Assembly: GCA_964434475.1 (NCBI GenBank)
Contig: CAYSVS010000005.1
Coordinates: 1-44,971, forward strand
DNA length: 44,971 nucleotides
Source of the DNA: an uncultured Methanosarcinales archaeon
GTDB taxonomy: Archaea > Nanobdellota > Nanobdellia > Woesearchaeales > CAYSVS01
Direction of reading: 5' to 3'
Positions within the stretch are counted from its first letter, which is position 1, and every line of letters starts with the position of its first letter. A program made the position numbers. Shown piece by piece: positions 3,001-15,000 of the stretch.

Positions 3001-6000
3001 CAATATAATCAAGAAGATGAAAAAACACAATATCTCACAGATGCCTGTATTAGAGAATAATTCTCCAGCAGGGTTGATATCTGAATCAACCATAATAGAT
3101 GCTATAGCTGATATGCATAATCCTAAAAATATAGCGAAGCTTAAAGTAGAGCAGGTAATGAAAGAATGTCCTCCTATAATAACTCCTAACGCAGATATAG
3201 AGCTTATATCAAGCCTATTGAAGCATTATGCGATACTCCTTGTTGCTGAGAAAGGCAAATTAAAAGGACTCATTAGTAAGGCTGATGTTCTAGATAGTAT
3301 TTATGGATGATAAAGATTTAATTTACATTACATTTTGATAAAAAATAATGTTTGTGATAATTTGTAACGCACATCAATAAAGATTCTTCAATTTTCCGAA
3401 TTCAAGAATCTCATCTTCAGCAACAACATACACATCAAATTCATCTAACTTCTGATGCAGATAAGGGCTTAATAGTTTTTGTGAGATAACATCAGTACCC
3501 TCTGTCACCGGATTAAAGCTAGGCATAACGATCAATTCTTTTCTTTTATACTTTCCATGTAAAAAGCATTTGTATTTCTCTATCCTGTTATTTTCTTTTA
3601 AAGAAACAGCAGGATGTTCATGTGCTATAATCATTGTCTTGATTTTTTTAGGAATCTCTAAAAATTTATCTCCGTGTATTATAAGAATATCATCTATCTC
3701 ATACTTATCAACAAGTTTTATATTTCGCTTATCAGCAATAGGGCCCAATATATTATCGTGGTTGCCTTTTACCAATATGACTTTACCGTACTCTAAAAGA
3801 AAATCTATCAATTTAAGTGTTTCTCGCCATTCTTGATCAGATATAGATCCGAATTCATGCTTTAAATCTCCGTTGATGACTATTGTATCAATCTTGTCTT
3901 TTACTTGATCCATTATTTTCTCAAGCCTTTGCATAATATCCTTAAAACTAAAACGAGGAATTAATACTCCTTTTTTATTCAACTCTTCTTCATAGCCTAT
4001 ATGGATATCTGCGATTATTAAAGTCCTATCTACCAATAGACACAAATCAATTATCTTTATCCTATCTGTTAATTTATACATAATAACTTAAATAAATCTA
4101 GAATTTATAAATTTAATTAATGAATAGTATTGTTTTCATATTTATTTACTGAATATGCTTGAAGATTAAAAAAACTATATGACGTACATTTTAACAATCT
4201 CAAAAATTCATTGAAATTTTCAAATGCTTGGTTTAAACGCACATAGTTGGTTTCATCTCTCTTAACACAAGTATCTAAATACTTCATAAATACATCTTCA
4301 GAACTCTTTATTTTTATATATTCTGCTTTATTCTTATCATAAATTTCAGAATCAACAATCTCAGCAACATTTTGCAAAATATCTACATAATCAAAATAAT
4401 TTCCATCAAAATTCTTATTAGAAATATAATCTTTAAGTTTTATTTCTAGTGAGATGTCATTAGAATCTAAATTTAACTTCACTATATTATCTACAAAACC
4501 TCTTTTTTTCATCTTAAAAAATAAAAGAAAAAAATTTATGCTTTTCCTAGGATTCTACACATAGTTGTACCACATACAGGGCACTTTCCTTTAGCCATCT
4601 TCATGCCTCTTGCATTAACAACAACTTCTGGATTCTGCATAGGAACATCTTTTTTCTTGCACTTTACACAATACGCTTTATATTCTTTAGTTTCTTCTTC
4701 TGCCACTGATAAACACCTCATTAGTTATATATTATATAGTATTAAATATTTTATATATAAAGGTTTCTACGTATTGCCTATAAATTTCAATCAATATTAT
4801 CAATTATCACTTCTGCTAAGCTCAACCCATTTGCCGCCGTTCCATATCAATGTGATAGTATCTGATGAATCATCCATTACATAATCTCCAGCAAGCAAAA
4901 GATCAGTACTATCAACAAAAGTTATATCTCTTATAGACACATATTGCTCTAAAACAAGTATCTGTCCAACATTTGTTCCTGGGCCGATTGATGTACAATC
5001 ATCGGTTGCAGCTCCGCCAAATGTATCTATGTATTGGAATGATTCTGTGACAGCTATACCGCCTGTTGAGTTAAGCGTAGCAACAGTACCATCACCAAAT
5101 GAGACAGCTTTATCAAAATCAGTGAAACCCGCAGCATTGATTTGCACACGTTCAAGATTATTTGTAAAGAAACGCATAGGTAAATTTTCTTGTTGAGCAA
5201 TTATAACGCCTTCCTCACTATCTATACCGATTGCTAAACCATCACTAGCTGTTGTTCCTGTATCAGTATTTGTAATCTGAAGATAATTGCTTGTAACTGC
5301 ACTTTTATGTATGCCTAAAGCATAATTAGGCGAATTTGTACCTATACCAACATTGCCAGAATCCTTTATTCTCATCTCCTCTTGCAGACCGTTTGCTCCT
5401 TGATGAGTTGAGAAAATAATATCTCCATGATTTGCCCATCCAGAATTAGGATTATAAAACTCTATCCTCGCAATTTCATAACCATTGTTATTAGCAGTCA
5501 AATATCCTATAGTATCTACTGTTTTTGTAACACTAGATATTATCTGAATGTTACCATCTCCTACGCTTAATTTTTGATTAGGTGCTGCAGTACCTATACC
5601 AACATAACCTGTATTGGCGATAGTCATTGCTGTTTCCCAAACTCCGCCAGCAATATCTGTCCAAAAAGCTAAACCACCAGAAGAATCAATCTGCATAATT
5701 GCTTGTGCATCCGCATCATCTGAAAATTGTAAAAATCCACCATCAGCAACTCCTGCTGCACCTGCTTTTGATATTCTTATTCCGCCATCAGCAACTTCAA
5801 ATTTAGCAACAGGATTTGATGTGCCTATACCTACTTTGCCGTCATCTGTTATTCTCATCCTTTCTGTTGATTCAGTTTTAAAAGTAATATTGTTGCCTGT
5901 ATCTCCTGCAATAAGATTTAAATCTCCACCATAAGAAAATATAGAGCGAGTATCTCCTCTCATCTGCAATTGATTAGATGAACCATCCCACACACGAATA

Positions 6001-12000: not shown

Positions 12001-15000
12001 TTGTCTGGCAATCTCCGTTCAAGCACAACTGAGGGGTATGAGTGATGCTTGTTACGTTCAGCTCGCCAGTTATCTTATAATTGCCGCTTCCAAAGCTTCC
12101 AGCTACTATCTCATCAGCGTCGTGATATACAACACCGCCGCCAAAAGCGATTGCAGAACACGCAAATAATATTGTTAAGATTATATACATTACACTCTTT
12201 TTTGTCATTAATATCCCCCTCTTTAAGTATAAAATTAGAGAATTAATCATTATTTAATATATAAAGGTTTTTATTTTATATACTTAAATATCCCACTTCC
12301 AAACAGGAATTATATGTATTAACTTTCCATCTATGTTTAACTCATCTTCCTGATCAAAAGTTAATATGCATCCTTCTTTAAGATTGAATTCAGCCATCGC
12401 CTCAAGTAACCCAAAAACTTCCCTGTCCTGATTACCATCATCAAGCTTATAACATACCTGAATGGCCTTAATTATCTTATTTTTCTCCTTTACAACAAAA
12501 TCGCATTCTTTGTTTTCTTTAAAATAAAAGATTTCTTTATATCTTGGTCTTAAACTCAGAAAAACCTGATTTTCAAGCATTTTTCCCTTATCTTTTGAAA
12601 ATGAAACACTGTTTGAATATGAAAAACCATTATCGATCGAATAAACTTTTTTAGGGTTTACCTGCTGCTTTTTATAGGAATAACTAAATCTAGGAATCGT
12701 AAAAATAAGGTAAGCGTCTTCAAAATAAGAGATATAATCAATTACGCTTTGAACTGACTTTATCTCAAACATATTCCTTAAGGAATTATAAGAAAATTCT
12801 TTTCCTACATGGCTTATCAAGTATATTGCTATTTTTTTCAGCAAAGAAGTGTTTTTTATTCCGTATCTTACAGCAATATCCCTCATCACAACATCATTCA
12901 AAAGTTCATTGAGGATTGTAAAATTCCGAGTCTTTAGATATTCAGGAAATCCTCCTTCAGTCAGATAATGGCCATAAGATTTAGAAGACTGTTTTCCTTT
13001 TCTAAACTTAAGATATTCAATATATGAAAAAGGAAATAATTCTGCCCTTATATGTCTGCCTGTCAATTTAGTCCCTAATTCCCTGCTTAGTAAAGATGCA
13101 TTTGAACCGGTTATCACTACCTTTTCCTTTCTGTCAACAAGATATCGGATAAATTTCTCCCATTTGTCTATGTTTTGGATTTCATCAAAAAAATATACGC
13201 CATTAGCGCCATATAACTCTTTAAAAATAACATCAGTCTTATTAAAATCATCTAACCCAAAACTTTCAAGCCTTGGATCCTCAAGATTAAGATAATAGAA
13301 GTTTTTTGATTTTTTCAGAATCTGGCTTAATAAAGTGCTTTTACCACATCTTCTTATACCTGCTATTACCAAAACAAAAGAAGGCATGACATTTACTTCT
13401 CCTAGCAAATGTCTCTCTACACCTTTCTCAATATCAAGAATCCATTTTCTCTGGGATTCGATAACTTCTCTTAAGACTTCTTTTCGCAACATAAACAAAA
13501 ATATATCCTTAAAGTATATAAATCTTTCTATTCACAATAGAAACTTCTTTCTATTACTAATAAAAACTATATCAACCCTATCTTTCTCAAATATTTCCTT
13601 GCTTCAACCTTAAAGTCTTTTCCCTTAAACATATTTCTAAACAATGAAGAACTCGCTTTCATCTGTGATTCTATAATCATCTTCTGCTGGGCAAAGTATT
13701 TTGGATTCTCTTTGATCTTATCTGCATAAAAGCGTATATAATCAAGATTATCCATTGTAATCCCTCATCATCTTTTCATATTCCTGAAGCTTTGTCTTTT
13801 CGATAATCTCTGCAAAAAATTGCCTTAAGTATTGGGCATCTGCAATATCCTTATCACTTCCCAAAATAATTTCCTTATACATAATCTCAAATTCTATAGG
13901 AGGAATCAGAAATTCAAAATCCTTAATCCTAACTTTTTGCGAATGCATAAATTCATAGAACTTAAGTTTTCGTGTTTCATTTATTGGAATCATTTCCATA
14001 TTTGGAAACATCTCATCCTTTCTCGCAAAGCGAATATTTTGCATCTCCTTGATATATTCGTAAAGTTCATCAGGATTATCGCCTTGATAACACCAAAAAT
14101 CATTGTTTAATTCACTAAAAAGTTGTTTAAAATTATCCTTTTCCATTATAGGAACAAGTACATCTACATCTTCTGTTGCTCTGGTTCTTCCAGCACAGAT
14201 AGTAACAAATCCGCTGACAATCATATAGGATGTATGATTTTTAAGAATATTCAAGAAATCCTTAACAAACAAATCTAATTCTGTCAATTCCCTATGGATA
14301 ATGATTTCATCATCTTTGATAGAATATGCTTTGTTTTCTTGACTCATCCCTTACAATTGATACTATGTATTATAAAAGCTTTGTGGTAATGCGCAAACAA
14401 TCAAAATAAAAAAGAAAAAATCTAGATAGCCATATCTTCAATAACTGTATCAACCCAATCTTCTGCCATTTTTTGGGCTTCATCTCTTGTATCTGCTAAG
14501 CCATTAGATAAAATTTCATTTGAGATGTTGCTTATCATCTCTAACCTATCTTCAAAATGTTGCATTAAACCCACCCCCAACAAAATATAATAGTTCTTGC
14601 CTTTTATAAATCTTTTCAAATAAGTATAGTAATGTAAGAAAAAAGTATACTGGAAATTATAATCTTTTTATAAGGTCATCAGAATCATCAAGTATTAACA
14701 AATTTCTTCCTTTCTTGTTCTTAGCTTTAACTTTCCTAGAAGTATTATTTGGCATATACAAAGCTTTTTTGTCAAAATCAGATCTTTTGAAATTCTTTTT
14801 TACATGCTCTATGGTTTTTGAATCATACACATCTATAATCATATCTAAGAAAACCTTCCTTGCTTCTGAGATTGGATTTTTGACAGTAGTATAAACATCA
14901 TCCTCTTTCTCCAATAGATCATAATGTTTTTTTGCCTGCTGCTCAAGCTGGTTATAAAATGCTTTTTTCATATTCTCTGTAAAAATATCAACATTCTCAT

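What a model noticed while it worked through the whole genome (the two positions that open the first line are those of the whole stretch)
4800..12208. Predator-type trimeric fibre adhesins (MAT-like) in a DPANN archaeon
Five genes in two loci encode Sec-signal proteins built like phage tail fibres: g00214 (624 aa), g00215 (421 aa) and g00217 (965 aa) on C5:4800-12208, and g01112 (626 aa) and the cut g01115 on C44:7691-11427. Their only relatives among solved structures are the 'mosaic adhesive trimer' (MAT) fibres that Bdellovibrio uses to recognise prey. They belong to the subclass without an S74 chaperone and have different tips; g00214 ends in a phage-depolymerase beta-sandwich. For g00214, g00215, g01112 and g01115 the nearest database relatives are mostly in Patescibacteria (CPR), Bdellovibrionota and Bacteroidota; the C-terminal part of g00217 has closer relatives in other Woesearchaeales and Altiarch [...]
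Evidence so far: phmmer against the PDB: g00214 hits Bd2133 (8OND) 9.2e-11 and 8OML 4.5e-4; g01112 hits 8OND 7.1e-9; g00217 hits 8OJN 1.4e-6 and 8OND 1.1e-5; nothing else at E<=0.01. Pfam: Phage_depo_C on g00214, Phage_T4_gp36 tail fibre 1.6e-5 on g00217; no Peptidase_S74 row. An SDxxxK string occurs only once, mid-protein in g00217. Paralogy among the five by blastp, 1e-5 to 1e-29; hydrophobic N-termini. Best gtdb and UniRef50 hits: Patescibacteria at 26-33% and Bdellovibrio 'tail fiber domain' proteins. Homotrimer model of g00215 residues 110-421: ipSAE 0.91 in 3 of 3 runs, best of 3 controls 0.00, about 925 contacts along the whole chain, pLDDT 88; the mark was reached by 21 of 30 solved homomers and 0 of [...]
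(Added by a program. Inside this text positions count along the whole contig: contig position 1 is position 1 of the stretch shown here. "Call 12" and the like, gene names such as g00115 and contig names such as C1 are that model's own, and its searches are not shown. The text may have been shortened before it was handed on; [...] marks where a part breaks off. The agent that wrote the report below was given it as the finding of a first reader that could run no searches.)

Follow-up and report, generated by a model that had tools for sequence, protein, structure and literature searches.

The report
Secreted phage-fibre-like trimers in a DPANN archaeon
A small archaeon carries, on a strain-specific stretch of its chromosome, three exported proteins built like virus tail fibres, which probably serve as surface fibres for sticking to other cells; this extends a kind of protein known from a predatory bacterium to archaea.

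Summary
Three minus-strand genes (4800-6674, 6671-7936, 9311-12208) encode signal-peptide proteins built from 66-110-aa 'GNVGIGTxxP' shaft modules. The quoted PDB and Pfam numbers reproduce.

The likeness to Bdellovibrio MAT fibres is confined to the shaft repeat. That repeat matches phage tail-fibre families far better (PHROG 1e-34) and belongs to a superfamily of 48,653 cluster representatives.

New points:
- g217 ends in a phi29-gp12-type (Peptidase_G2) autochaperone (Z 14.4-14.9), so it has a chaperone, though not S74.
- The genes lie in a 9.75-kb block absent from both congeneric genomes.
- The g215 tip is 55% identical to that of a leaderless, phage-like protein.
- The shaft occurs in 49 of 200 other genomes of the order.
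- The g217 architecture also occurs in Methanosarcinales MAGs.
- No capsid, terminase, portal, sheath or baseplate family was found in the 97%-complete genome.
- A g214 homotrimer model passes its controls.

Best reading: cellular, exported trimeric fibres made of virus-derived modules, probably adhesins. The target and the anchoring are unknown.

The parts
4680..14428 (.). 9.75-kb accessory block holding the fibre operon, an AAA_14/DUF4143 ATPase and a 199-aa ORF. It is absent from both congeneric genomes.
   Evidence: In G002:C211 and G001:C16 the sequences matching window 4532-4678 and 14428-14634 lie only 73-114 bp apart, at 66-75% DNA identity in the flanks.
4800..6674 (-). g214, 624 aa. 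Signal peptide (residues 1-20), six shaft modules, and a C-terminal beta-sandwich tip (Phage_depo_C, residues about 552-616).
   Evidence: Homotrimer model of residues 335-624: ipSAE 0.94 in 3 of 3 runs against a best control of 0.01.
6671..7936 (-). g215, 421 aa. Its signal peptide and first ~28 mature residues are almost the same as in g214. Four shaft modules and a beta-sandwich tip.
   Evidence: Tip: Phage_depo_C at 6.2e-4, 20.6 bits, below the cut-off. Model pLDDT 79.9. Best fold match is a phage tailspike depolymerase C-terminal domain, 24qj_A, Z 9.5, rmsd 2.6 over 88 residues. Only two relatives of the tip were found; neither has a leader.
6529..6694 (-). 5' segment of g214 repeated at 7788-7953 (5' end of g215). 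166 nt at 90% identity, with a near-identical core of ~140 nt and sharp edges.
   Evidence: family D3; alignment. Read as recombination or gene conversion that keeps a common signal peptide and N-terminal 'handle' on two different fibres.
7933..9291 (-). g216, 452 aa. Schlafen AlbA_2 + HATPase_c_4 + winged-helix protein, embedded in the operon. Its stop overlaps the g215 start (ATGA).
   Evidence: 3.9e-20, 1.8e-14, 7.1e-10; phrog_12156 at 7.3e-66; junction sequence. Its role is unknown; a regulator is possible.
9311..12208 (-). g217, 965 aa. Signal peptide, a short N-terminal motif (YHDADEIVAGSFGSGNYKITG), two tandem fibre units each opening with C-x-NGDC-x3-WPAG, at least six shaft modules, and a C-terminal autochaperone.
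   Evidence: (residues 3-392 and 487-829 both match g1112).
9311..9670 (-). Peptidase_G2 / phi29-gp12-type intramolecular chaperone domain of g217 (residues 847-965). It starts at the invariant D847-F-A-E850.
   Evidence: D, A and E invariant in 20 of 20 sequences. PF11962 at 3.6e-5, 23.7 bits, cut-off 25; the nearest relative scores 27.4 bits; pLDDT 87.8; 3suc Z 14.9, rmsd 2.2 over 112 residues; 3gqh_A Z 14.4, rmsd 1.9 over 106 residues; model residues 57-173 align to chain residues 692-854.
12244..12273 (-). Putative archaeal promoter (BRE/TATA-like AAACCTTTATATA) about 45 nt upstream of the g217 ATG.
   Evidence: sequence. (family D6: a similar box at 4740-4769, before the small flanking gene). 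The promoter consensus is recalled, not tested.
12284..13498 (-). AAA_14 + DUF4143 ATPase. It matches PADLOC's candidate defence family PDC-S01.
   Evidence: 1.5e-35, 3.8e-21. (PDLC04787 at 1.5e-112). There are 12 AAA_14 matches in the genome, 8 of them strong, and 3 of those 8 lie beside fibre genes.
13748..14347 (-). 199-aa ORF at the far end of the block. No family hit. It looks like a nucleotidyltransferase by eye only.
   Evidence: Searches gave no hits. It lies inside the block that the congeners lack.

Best explanation
The four-gene operon g217-g216-g215-g214 sits in a strain-specific 9.75-kb chromosomal block. It encodes three Sec-exported proteins that fold into intertwined homotrimeric beta-helical fibres. 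The fibres are built from the shaft module of tailed-virus tail fibres.

**Proposed course**
1. Export through Sec (inferred from the leaders).
2. Trimerisation. For g217 this is probably nucleated by its C-terminal phi29-gp12-type autochaperone, which then cuts itself off before D847 (inferred from fold and motif).
3. Retention at the cell surface through the short conserved N-terminal segments (inferred; no anchor was identified).
4. Binding of a surface glycan or protein of another cell by the distal parts: the Phage_depo_C-like beta-sandwich tips of g214 and g215, and the shaft of g217 (inferred).

The modules are of viral type. A cellular leader and N-terminal handle have been joined to shafts and tips that otherwise occur on leaderless, phage-like fibres. 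In logic the proteins therefore work like the Bdellovibrio MAT fibres (constant proximal end, swappable distal end), without being members of that family in the strict sense.

**Shown:** gene structure, repeat architecture, family and fold relations, a trimer model that passes its controls, the chromosomal accessory context, and the failure to find virion families.

**Inferred:** export, cleavage, surface display, and adhesion to a host or partner cell.
For: **Architecture**
- 6, 4 and at least 6 shaft modules, spaced 66-110 aa.
- The shaft matches MAT crystal structures and phage tail-fibre PHROGs at 1e-30 to 1e-34.
- Trimer: ipSAE 0.94 in 3 of 3 runs, best of 3 controls 0.01, about 805 contacts reaching residue 624, pLDDT 94. 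The mark was reached by 20 of 30 solved homomers and 1 of 23 single chains.

**Export**
- Canonical leaders on all four complete proteins.
- By contrast, only 8 of the 120 best g214 homologues, two of them g214 and g215 themselves, have a hydrophobic N-terminus.

**Cellular, not virion**
- Archaeal housekeeping genes lie on the same contig.
- 0 of 28 flanking ORFs hit a phage structural PHROG other than the fibres themselves.
- No TerL_ATPase, Terminase_6N, Phage_capsid, Phage_portal, Phage_sheath_1 or Baseplate_J was found in a genome 96.95% complete.
- A TATA-like box, a Shine-Dalgarno-like site, and ATGA-coupled genes.

**Chaperone of g217:**

**Mosaicism**
- A 166-nt segment at 90% identity, with a ~140-nt near-identical core, is shared by the 5' ends of g214 and g215.
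- The g215 tip is 55% identical to the tip of a leaderless 706-aa protein and 37% identical to that of a leaderless shaft protein.
- g217 contains an internal duplication.

**Lineage pattern**
- The shaft profile is found in 49 of 200 other genomes of the order and in 0 of 14 control genomes.
- In 20 fetched loci, 17 of 19 fibre frames with a complete 5' end have leader-like N-termini. Their C-termini are varied: G2-like, S74-like, Cys-rich and others.

**Accessory nature:** the block is absent from 2 of 2 congeners, and the C44 locus is variable too.
Against: - No experiment or expression data. Only one DNA run holds the stretch.
- No anchor was found: no TM helix beyond the leader, and no sorting signal that I could recognise. 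If the leaders are cleaved, the fibres could simply be released.
- The binding target is unknown. The tips show only fold-level likeness to phage tailspike domains, and a shared fold shows no function.
- The trimer pass may reflect the model's memory of solved MAT and phage trimers (caveat printed).
- My leader heuristic has a high background in the relatives' loci: 44 of 71 neighbouring long frames also pass. The 17-of-19 figure therefore says little on its own.
- The same architecture in Methanosarcinales MAGs argues against a role specific to episymbiosis.
- The neighbours are candidate defence genes, which would also fit a role in virus-host conflict.
- GC3 of the fibre genes (0.19-0.23) is below that of the housekeeping genes (0.27-0.34). 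This is compatible with foreign origin.
Confidence: 0.55

Rival explanations
1. Remnant or working part of a virus, provirus, tailocin or contractile injection system. On this reading the genes are tail fibres that attach to a particle, not to the cell.
For: - The shaft is the tail-fibre module of real phages: phrog_18345 and phrog_9942 at 1e-30 to 1e-34.
- 49 GenBank phage records match, mostly cyanophages and pelagiphages annotated as tail fibre.
- Most of the nearest homologues lack leaders.
- The relatives of the g215 tip lack leaders.
- The block is missing from the congeners.
- GC3 is lower than in housekeeping genes.
- g216 matches a PHROG in full length.
Against: - Sec-type leaders on all four complete proteins. 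Virion fibres assemble in the cytoplasm (established knowledge).
- None of six virion/tail families was found in a 96.95%-complete genome.
- No structural PHROG among 28 neighbouring ORFs.
- No tRNA, and no integrase among the ORFs scanned in the window.
- The g217-type chaperone domain has 58 relatives in cellular genomes (up to 55% identity) against 4 weak ones (27-32%) in 2.9 million viral contigs.
- Unknown archaeal virus types with unrecognisable capsids cannot be excluded.
Confidence: 0.1
2. Released, not displayed. The fibres are secreted soluble trimers that bind or degrade extracellular polysaccharide (depolymerase-like), or that mask receptors as decoys against viruses. This would fit their place among candidate defence genes.
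For: - Predicted cleavable leaders and no recognisable anchor.
- The tips of g214 and g215 resemble the C-terminal domains of phage capsule depolymerases.
- The neighbours match PADLOC candidates PDC-S01 and PDC-M05A, and a Schlafen/AlbA_2 protein sits inside the operon.
- The only run holding the stretch is labelled microbial mat metagenome.
Against: - No catalytic domain was detected by Pfam, NCBIfam or PHROGs.
- The shaft is the slender fibre type, not a wide enzymatic beta-helix. This is inferred from the MAT alignments only.
- Conserved N-terminal segments directly after the leader suggest a docking function: the segment shared by g214 and g215, and the PGH-type motif in 9 of 19 fibre frames of relatives.
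- AAA_14 genes are numerous in this genome (12 matches), so the adjacency may be chance within a variable region.
Confidence: 0.2
3. General surface fibres for attachment to the mat matrix, minerals or kin (biofilm structure), with no role in recognising a host cell.
For: - The same N-motif / shaft / G2-chaperone architecture occurs in Methanosarcinales MAGs on contigs of 45-303 kb. In the one Methanosarcinales locus examined (L013) it lies next to LVIVD-repeat surface proteins.
- The only run holding the stretch is labelled microbial mat metagenome.
- The fibres are found in only about a quarter of the order, so they are not essential to its way of life.
Against: - Strain-level presence/absence, tip swapping, and several paralogues with different ends are the pattern expected for specific, fast-changing targets rather than a generic matrix.
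- This is circumstantial.
Confidence: 0.15

Closest known systems
Bdellovibrio bacteriovorus MAT (mosaic adhesive trimer) fibres (Caulton et al. 2024, PMC10769870; PDB 8OND, 8OML, 8OJN)
   Same: - Signal peptide.
- Trimeric shaft with the VG-x-G/N-x-x-x-P-x-x-x-L capping-loop motif (sequence matches at 9.2e-11 to 6.2e-5).
- Several paralogues per genome with a constant proximal end and swappable distal ends.
- Some ends carry an autochaperone.
- The g215 tip shares its fold with CBA120 TSP4 (7rej, Z 7.7), the structure that Caulton's Table S1 names for the Bd0726 tip.
   Different: - Archaeal rather than bacterial. The paper's tables list bacteria only, with 0 occurrences of 'archae' in the readable supplement.
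- No room in g214 or g215 for the ~130-aa conserved N-terminal domain.
- The chaperone is of G2 type, not S74.
- Much shorter than typical MATs (421-965 aa against about 1,000).
- No outer membrane to sit on.
- No predation is known for this organism.
Tail fibres of tailed phages (PHROG 18345 and 9942; cyanophage, pelagiphage and roseophage tail fibres)
   Same: - The shaft module is the same family (1e-30 to 1e-34; 49 phage records at 24-37% identity).
- The tip modules are shared with leaderless fibres.
   Different: - The archaeal proteins carry Sec-type leaders.
- They sit in a chromosome without detectable virion genes.
- No close phage homologue: the best identity in any library is 33-41%.
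Bacillus phage phi29 gp12 pre-neck appendage, C-terminal autochaperone (MEROPS G2, Pfam PF11962; PDB 3GQH, 3SUC)
   Same: - Fold of g217 residues 847-965: Z 14.4-14.9, rmsd 1.9-2.2 A.
- Position at the very C-terminus of a trimeric fibre.
- An invariant D-x-A-E sits where the released phi29 fragment begins, at residue 692 in the entry's numbering.
- A near-threshold Pfam hit.
   Different: - 14-21% sequence identity.
- It follows a slender fibre rather than a wide beta-helix.
- It is on an exported cellular protein.
- Cleavage is untested.
- The fold is also that of capsid cement proteins (8qsy Z 13.7), so fold alone does not prove the function.
C-terminal beta-sandwich of phage capsule depolymerases (Pfam PF25692 Phage_depo_C; e.g. 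24qj Acinetobacter phage tailspike)
   Same: - g214 passes the Pfam cut-off (28.9 and 32.3 bits against 25).
- The g215 tip model matches 24qj_A residues 610-698 (Z 9.5, rmsd 2.6 over 88 residues).
   Different: - No depolymerase beta-helix precedes it.
- g215 is below the Pfam cut-off (20.6 bits).
- The two tips show no pairwise BLASTP similarity (E = 5.1).

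Membership tests
MAT superfamily (Bdellovibrio, Caulton 2024) | N-terminal signal peptide | tested here: met
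   K/R-rich, then hydrophobic, then small-x-small N-termini on g214, g215, g217 and g1112. Judged by heuristic and by eye; no dedicated predictor was used.
MAT superfamily (Bdellovibrio, Caulton 2024) | [quoted passage not shown] | tested here: not met
   In g214 and g215 the first shaft motif starts at residues 44-45, about 25 residues after the predicted cleavage site. For g217 and g1112, about 85 residues precede the first shaft-like motif, and they hold a different short motif. No MAT N-domain sequence was available for a direct comparison, so for those two proteins the test is inconclusive.
MAT superfamily (Bdellovibrio, Caulton 2024) | Trimeric beta-helical shaft with repeated capping-loop motif | tested here: met
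   phmmer hits to 8OND, 8OML and 8OJN lie over the motif. There are 4 to 6 or more modules per protein. The homotrimer model scores 0.94 against a best control of 0.01; this may be memory of solved trimers.
MAT superfamily (Bdellovibrio, Caulton 2024) | Variable C-terminal tip, with or without an S74 chaperone | tested here: met
   Different ends: Phage_depo_C-like sandwiches on g214 and g215, a G2-type chaperone on g217, and Cys-rich ends on g1112 and g1115.
MAT superfamily (Bdellovibrio, Caulton 2024) | Display on the cell surface and binding of another cell's surface | not testable with these tools
   Needs microscopy, fractionation or binding assays.
Peptidase_G2 intramolecular chaperone (PF11962; phi29 gp12) | Pfam score at or above the gathering cut-off | tested here: not met
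   The g217 C-terminal piece scores 23.7 bits (E = 3.6e-5) against a cut-off of 25. The nearest named relative (L012, 55% identical) scores 27.4. Homologues P0190 (28.8) and P0179 (27.1) pass the cut-off of 25. P0155 (24.5) and P0195 (24.6) fall just below it.
Peptidase_G2 intramolecular chaperone (PF11962; phi29 gp12) | Fold of the released C-terminal fragment | tested here: met
   3gqh_A: Z 14.4, rmsd 1.9 over 106 residues. 3suc: Z 14.9, rmsd 2.2 over 112 residues. Foldseek: 5.7e-4 and 6.3e-4. Model pLDDT 87.8.
Peptidase_G2 intramolecular chaperone (PF11962; phi29 gp12) | Location at the extreme C-terminus of a trimeric fibre or spike, with conserved acidic residues at its start | tested here: met
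   The domain ends within three residues of the C-terminus in all 42 homologues aligned. D-x-A-E is invariant in 20 of 20 sequences. It aligns to the first residue (692) of the phi29 fragment. The catalytic role of these residues is recalled, not tested.
Peptidase_G2 intramolecular chaperone (PF11962; phi29 gp12) | Autoproteolytic release after trimer folding | not testable with these tools
   Needs expression of g217 and of D847/E850 mutants.
Peptidase_S74 chaperone (PF13884) | C-terminal S74 domain with SDxxxK | tested here: not met
   No PF13884 row on g214, g215 or g217. The only SD...K is at g217 residue 312. Elsewhere in the genome there is one S74 fragment at the end of contig C4.
Phage_depo_C (PF25692) | Pfam score at or above the cut-off | tested here: met
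   g214: 28.9 bits for the whole protein and 32.3 bits for the tip, cut-off 25. g215: 20.6 bits, below the cut-off, but its fold matches a depolymerase C-terminal domain.
Virion tail fibre of a (pro)virus | Encoded with capsid, packaging and tail genes; no export signal | tested here: not met
   Six hallmark families were not found in the 96.95%-complete genome. No structural PHROG among 28 neighbours. Leaders are present. Unknown virus types are not excluded.

The most novel reading that the evidence does not exclude
This DPANN archaeon, and about a quarter of the sampled genomes of its order, has taken receptor-binding modules from tailed viruses. Those viruses are perhaps the ones that infect the organisms it attaches to. 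The modules have been joined to a Sec leader and a lineage-specific N-terminal handle, and the archaeon uses the resulting fibres to recognise its host. The strain-specific block with its swappable tips would then be the determinant of host range. The G2- and S74-type autochaperones would be a general device of archaeal surface-fibre assembly outside any virus.
Probability: 0.3. Interest if true: 0.8.

Novelty: new variant of a known kind. Interest (0 to 1): 0.55.

Why it matters
How DPANN archaea find and hold on to their hosts is largely unknown, and few molecular candidates are named. Here is a concrete, clonable set.
- Three to five exported fibres with different ends.
- They lie in a block that differs between species of one genus.
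- They are built from the modules that viruses use for host recognition.

If they are the attachment organs, comparing fibre repertoires across genomes could predict partners of uncultivated archaea. The tips could also be used as probes to fish hosts out of a sample.

Two further points bear on how fibres evolve and fold:
- a phi29-type autochaperone on an exported archaeal protein;
- S74 and G2 chaperones on neighbouring surface proteins in a Methanosarcinales MAG.

Together these suggest that intramolecular chaperones are not a viral speciality.

In the library searched, no paper links tail-fibre-like proteins to DPANN or Woesearchaeota attachment (searches; listings only). The one hit, PMC11329633, describes fibre-like 'antennae' on the host, not the symbiont (passage read).

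Tried and rejected

- NCBIfam gave nothing useful.
- g215 has no PDB relative by sequence.
- The g214 and g215 tips show no BLASTP similarity to each other (E = 5.1). One search was a frame slip of mine, corrected.

**Genome and viral scans**
- The search for related loci turned down alignments A3 and A1 for lack of a conserved stretch.
- g214 as a single query gave 48 pattern hits, none confirmed. No Bdellovibrio locus was obtained for a comparison of N-terminal domains.
- A smaller alignment (A4) worked.
- No Altiarchaeota appeared among its 58 loci. The scan depends on two peptide patterns, so this is not evidence of absence.

**Structure and profile searches**
- The profile of the chaperone alignment against the PDB gave only sub-threshold rows for phi29 gp12 (E = 0.16) and a tailspike chaperone domain (E = 0.32). 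The link rests on fold and Pfam instead.
- The Atlas look-up of the g217 N-terminus gave viral clusters at 0.91-0.93 with few shared features. This is a lead only.

**Expression**
- No RNA holder was listed. One DNA run holds the stretch and may be its source.

**Repeats and context**
- The 30-nt repeat D6 flanking the fibre genes looked like an att pair. It is better read as two similar promoters, and the true edges of the block lie elsewhere.
- No tRNA in the window.

**Heuristic control**
- The leader heuristic with free choice of start has a 62% background among neighbouring frames (44 of 71).

**Literature**
- The search for the phi29 cleavage residues found no passage. That detail is recalled.

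**Not done**
- No tree for the direction of transfer.
- No re-run of the g215 trimer.
- No structure for the inserted domain or the Cys-rich tips of g1112.
- No search with archaeal-virus capsid families other than HK97.

Full report
**1. What is there**

The window is contig C5 of a 1.50-Mb, 148-contig genome, rated 96.95% complete and 0.85% contaminated. Between 4800 and 12208 four minus-strand genes follow each other tightly:
- g217: 9311-12208, 965 aa
- g216: 7933-9291, 452 aa
- g215: 6671-7936, 421 aa
- g214: 4800-6674, 624 aa

The g216/g215 and g215/g214 junctions are ATGA overlaps. g217 has a Shine-Dalgarno-like AGAGGGGGA before its ATG at 12208, and a TTTATATA box about 45 nt upstream. 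I read the box as an archaeal BRE/TATA promoter; that consensus is recalled.

The rest of the window encodes eIF-6, prefoldin, SRP54, FtsY, ThrRS, ScpA and an RsmB/F-type methyltransferase. The contig is therefore archaeal and chromosomal.

**2.

- phmmer against the PDB gives g214 8OND 9.2e-11, 8OML 4.5e-4, 8OJN 0.0099.
- It gives g217 8OJN 1.4e-6, 8OND 1.1e-5, 8OML 6.2e-5.
- g215 has nothing below E = 0.78.
- Pfam gives Phage_depo_C on g214 (1.6e-6) and Phage_T4_gp36 on g217 (1.6e-5, just under its cut-off). No S74 row appears.
- SD...K occurs only at g217 residue 312.
- The paralogues on C44 are real: a 626-638-aa gene and a gene cut by the contig end. I confirmed only the nucleotidyltransferase partner (phrog_388; PDC-M05A). 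The other ORF had no hit.

**3. Anatomy**

Each protein starts with a K/R-rich, then hydrophobic, then small-x-small leader. It then repeats a module of 66-110 aa that ends in E-x-MRI-x3-G-x-VGIGT-x2-P-x3-L-x-V:
- six modules in g214;
- four in g215;
- at least six in g217;
- four in g1112.

The strict motif occurs nowhere else in the genome.

g217 is an internal tandem. Residues 3-392 and 487-829 both match g1112, and each unit opens with C-x-NGDC-x3-WPAG.

A homotrimer model of g214 residues 335-624 scores ipSAE 0.94 in 3 of 3 runs:
- the best of 3 controls is 0.01;
- there are about 805 contacts along the whole chain, including the tip;
- pLDDT is 94;
- the mark was reached by 20 of 30 solved homomers and 1 of 23 single chains.

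Solved MAT and phage trimers exist, so the pass may be likeness rather than independent evidence.

**4. The MAT likeness is the shaft only**

The HMMER alignments to 8OND, 8OML and 8OJN lie on the repeated motif and its surroundings. The same proteins hit phage tail-fibre families far more strongly:
- phrog_18345 at 1.1e-34 for g214 and 1.4e-30 for g217;
- phrog_9942 at 6.7e-32, 1.2e-29 and 1.1e-12.

tblastn of g214 finds 49 of 50,697 GenBank phage records at 24-37% identity. By first word of the organism name they are Synechococcus 21, Pelagibacter 14, Cyanophage 7, Roseobacter 3, Prochlorococcus 2, uncultured 1 and Thermus 1. The rows shown are mostly annotated as tail fibre or as hypothetical protein. 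None is an archaeal virus.

An exhaustive HMMER scan of 1.84 billion cluster representatives finds 48,653 at E <= 1e-3, 11,712 at <= 1e-10 and 654 at <= 1e-30. None among the 150 best listed is closer than 41%. The shaft is thus a very common viral and cellular building block.

Caulton et al. describe MATs as 'phage-like'. They state that all 21 have a conserved ~130-aa beta-rich domain after the signal peptide, thought to hold the fibre on the predator (PMC10769870, passages). In g214 and g215 the first shaft motif begins about 25 residues after the predicted cleavage site, so that domain cannot be there. I had no MAT N-terminal sequence to compare with g217 or g1112.

**5. g217 has a chaperone after all**

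- Its last ~155 residues have 145 relatives in the word-indexed search, 17 of them at 48-61% identity.
- In all 42 homologues aligned, the domain ends within three residues of the C-terminus. The proteins are 560 to 1,498 aa long, with unrelated bodies such as YadA_head, Laminin_G_3 and ice-binding roll.
- Several relatives carry Pfam Peptidase_G2 over this region.
- The closest named one, a Woesearchaeota MAG protein 55% identical, passes the cut-off (27.4 against 25).
- g217 itself scores 23.7 bits, E = 3.6e-5.
- In an alignment of 20 such ends, D-x-A-E is invariant; in g217 it is D847-F-A-E850.
- The AlphaFold model (pLDDT 87.8) matches the phi29 gp12 C-terminal fragment. 3gqh_A gives Z 14.4, rmsd 1.9 A over 106 residues. 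3suc gives Z 14.9, rmsd 2.2 A over 112 residues.
- Model residue 57, the invariant Asp, is aligned to residue 692, where the crystallised released fragment begins. Foldseek agrees at 5.7e-4.
- Capsid cement proteins share the fold (8qsy Z 13.7). The assignment therefore rests on fold, position, motif and Pfam together.

That gp12 cleaves itself before Asp692 with help of Glu695 is my recollection of Xiang et al. 2009. I found no passage for it.

Consequence: g217 probably folds from its C-terminus and sheds residues 847-965. The mature fibre would then end in a shaft module.

**6. The tips of g214 and g215**

- The g214 tip passes Phage_depo_C (32.3 bits for the tip alone). The g215 tip scores 20.6 bits, below the cut-off.
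- The two tips are not alike by BLASTP.
- The g215 tip model (pLDDT 79.9; only one of five models is good) best matches the C-terminal domain of an Acinetobacter phage tailspike depolymerase (24qj_A, Z 9.5, rmsd 2.6 over 88 residues).
- Further matches are a 'chaperone-substrate complex' chain (6o38_A, Z 9.0), a Klebsiella phage baseplate chain (9f4a, Z 7.8), CBA120 TSP4 (7rej, Z 7.7), a capsid spike (9ny6_C, Z 7.6) and E. coli StcE (4dny_A, Z 6.4).
- After these the Z-scores drop to 3.9.
- 7REJ is the structure that Caulton's Table S1 names for the tip of MAT Bd0726.
- The g215 tip has only two relatives in the indexed search, at 55% and 37% identity. Both are on proteins without a leader and with phage-like N-termini.

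**7. Leaders set these proteins apart from their nearest relatives**

- Only 8 of the 120 best g214 homologues have a hydrophobic N-terminus, and two of the 8 are g214 and g215 themselves.
- The three I read in full (P0002, P0005, P0021) look like virion fibres; one ends in an S74-like domain.
- By contrast, 72 of the 120 best relatives of the g217 chaperone domain have such an N-terminus.

**8. Context: an accessory block**

In both congeneric genomes, the DNA matching window 4532-4678 and 14428-14634 lies 73-114 bp apart. Window ~4680-14428 is therefore an insertion here or a loss there. The block holds the four-gene operon, an AAA_14/DUF4143 ATPase and a 199-aa ORF.

- The ATPase matches PADLOC's candidate defence family PDC-S01 at 1.5e-112. 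The C44 nucleotidyltransferase matches PDC-M05A.
- AAA_14 has 12 matches in the genome.
- The C44 locus is variable too. In G001 the flanks of both loci lie on one contig a few kb apart, so the two loci may belong to one variable region.
- The 5' ends of g214 and g215 share 166 nt at 90% identity. A ~140-nt near-identical core covers the leader and the first ~28 mature residues, and its edges are sharp. This is the footprint of recombination that keeps a common proximal end.
- GC3 of the fibre genes is 0.19-0.23, against 0.27-0.34 for the housekeeping genes. Their higher total GC comes from codon positions 1 and 2.

**9. Not a provirus, as far as can be seen**

- No TerL_ATPase, Terminase_6N, HK97 capsid, portal, sheath or Baseplate_J was found in the genome. 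The controls ring in 3-5 of 14 known genomes.
- None of 28 flanking ORFs hits a structural PHROG apart from the fibres themselves.
- No tRNA lies in the window.
- One Peptidase_S74 fragment sits at the very end of contig C4, in an 89-aa frame preceded by a stop.
- Capsids of unknown archaeal virus types were not searched for.

**10. Spread**

- With g214 as query, 11 of 40 relatives match: 0 of 2 congeners and 11 of 38 other genomes of the same order, one genome per family.
- With the phrog_9942 profile, 49 of 200 other genomes of the order match (35 of 153 good-quality genomes counting G000), and 0 of 14 control genomes.
- I fetched 20 of these loci. Of the 19 fibre frames with a complete 5' end, 17 have leader-like N-termini. 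So do 44 of 71 neighbouring long frames, many of which are visibly other secreted proteins, so the heuristic discriminates poorly there.
- The ends of these frames vary: G2-like, S74-like, Cys-rich and a '...GNVIITLG' type.
- Nine of the 19 carry a PGH-type motif right after the leader (such as A-DPGH-x-A-x2-I-x2-G-x-F). g217 and g1112 have a variant of it, and so do several non-fibre neighbours.
- The closest named relatives of the g217 chaperone domain are two Woesearchaeota MAGs (55%, 49%) and three Methanosarcinales MAGs (48%, on contigs of 45-303 kb). Bacteria follow at 25-42%.
- The Methanosarcinales protein has the leader, the PNPGH motif, shaft motifs and the G2 end. It sits beside LVIVD-repeat proteins, one of which has an S74 chaperone.
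- Only 4 weak relatives (27-32%) were found in 2.9 million viral contigs.

**11. Verdict**

The thing is real and is more than chance. It is best described as a set of exported homotrimeric fibres assembled from virus-type modules, encoded in a strain-specific chromosomal block of a small-genome archaeon.

It works like a MAT fibre in design, with a constant proximal end, swappable distal ends and an optional autochaperone. It fails one defining MAT feature, and it is no closer to MATs than to thousands of phage fibres. Adhesion to another cell is the most likely use but is inferred only. Release into the medium, matrix binding, or a role in virus-host conflict remain open.

I rate it a new variant of a known kind: archaeal, with a G2-type chaperone and its own N-terminal handle.

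Noticed in passing
L077, L079, L084, L087, L088, L090, L091, L093 (relatives of the same order); window 12080-12145 (g217 residues 22-43); L001 about 9440-9510 (g1112): A short motif follows the predicted signal-peptide cleavage site directly, of the form (A)-x-(D/N)PGH-x-A-x2-I-x2-G-x-F-x2-GNY-x-F. It occurs in 9 of 19 fibre frames of relatives. It also occurs on several non-fibre secreted frames in the same loci, and on a Methanosarcinales protein (P0136). It could be a shared surface-docking or sorting handle of archaeal secreted proteins.
   Followed up: partly
G000 contig C4:46562-46669 (minus strand), outside the window: One Peptidase_S74 match (3.0e-9) lies in an 89-aa frame at the very end of contig C4, preceded by a stop codon. 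It is either the tail of a sixth fibre gene broken by the assembly or a remnant.
   Followed up: partly
G001:C16:2388-9068 compared with window 2798-14543 and L001 3829-4559: In one congener the flanks of both fibre loci lie on a single contig a few kb apart. In this genome the left end of C5 may therefore adjoin the cut end of C44, which would make one larger variable region. The missing N-terminal part of g1115 would lie in the assembly gap.
   Followed up: no
L013 (Methanosarcinales MAG) 3369-10503: A G2-chaperone fibre is followed by two LVIVD-repeat proteins. One of these ends in a Peptidase_S74 chaperone domain (2.5e-5, above the cut-off). Both kinds of 'phage' autochaperone thus sit on neighbouring archaeal surface proteins, with no viral gene in view.
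   Followed up: partly
window 8114-8161: A 12-nt unit (TTTTCAGGGACA) is repeated in tandem over 48 nt inside g216. It encodes the run VPENVPENVPE between the HATPase_c_4 and HTH parts. It may be a flexible linker or a slippage-prone tract.
   Followed up: no
window 12284-13498; L001 4556-5818 and 6340-7596; nine further places in the genome: The AAA_14/DUF4143 ATPase family (PADLOC candidate PDC-S01, 1e-108 to 1e-112) is expanded: 12 matches, 8 of them strong. Three of the eight strong ones neighbour fibre genes.
   Followed up: partly
window 17111-19630 (+), 21660-22832 (-), 266-1192 (-): Three sizeable ORFs (839, 390 and 308 aa) have no Pfam hit at the thresholds used and no PHROG hit.
   Followed up: no
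window 4540-4700 (minus strand) and 14400-14565 (minus strand): Two small conserved ORFs form the immediate flanks of the block and are adjacent in both congeners. The first reads like a Cys-x2-Cys zinc-ribbon protein. The block was inserted (or lost) exactly between them.
   Followed up: partly
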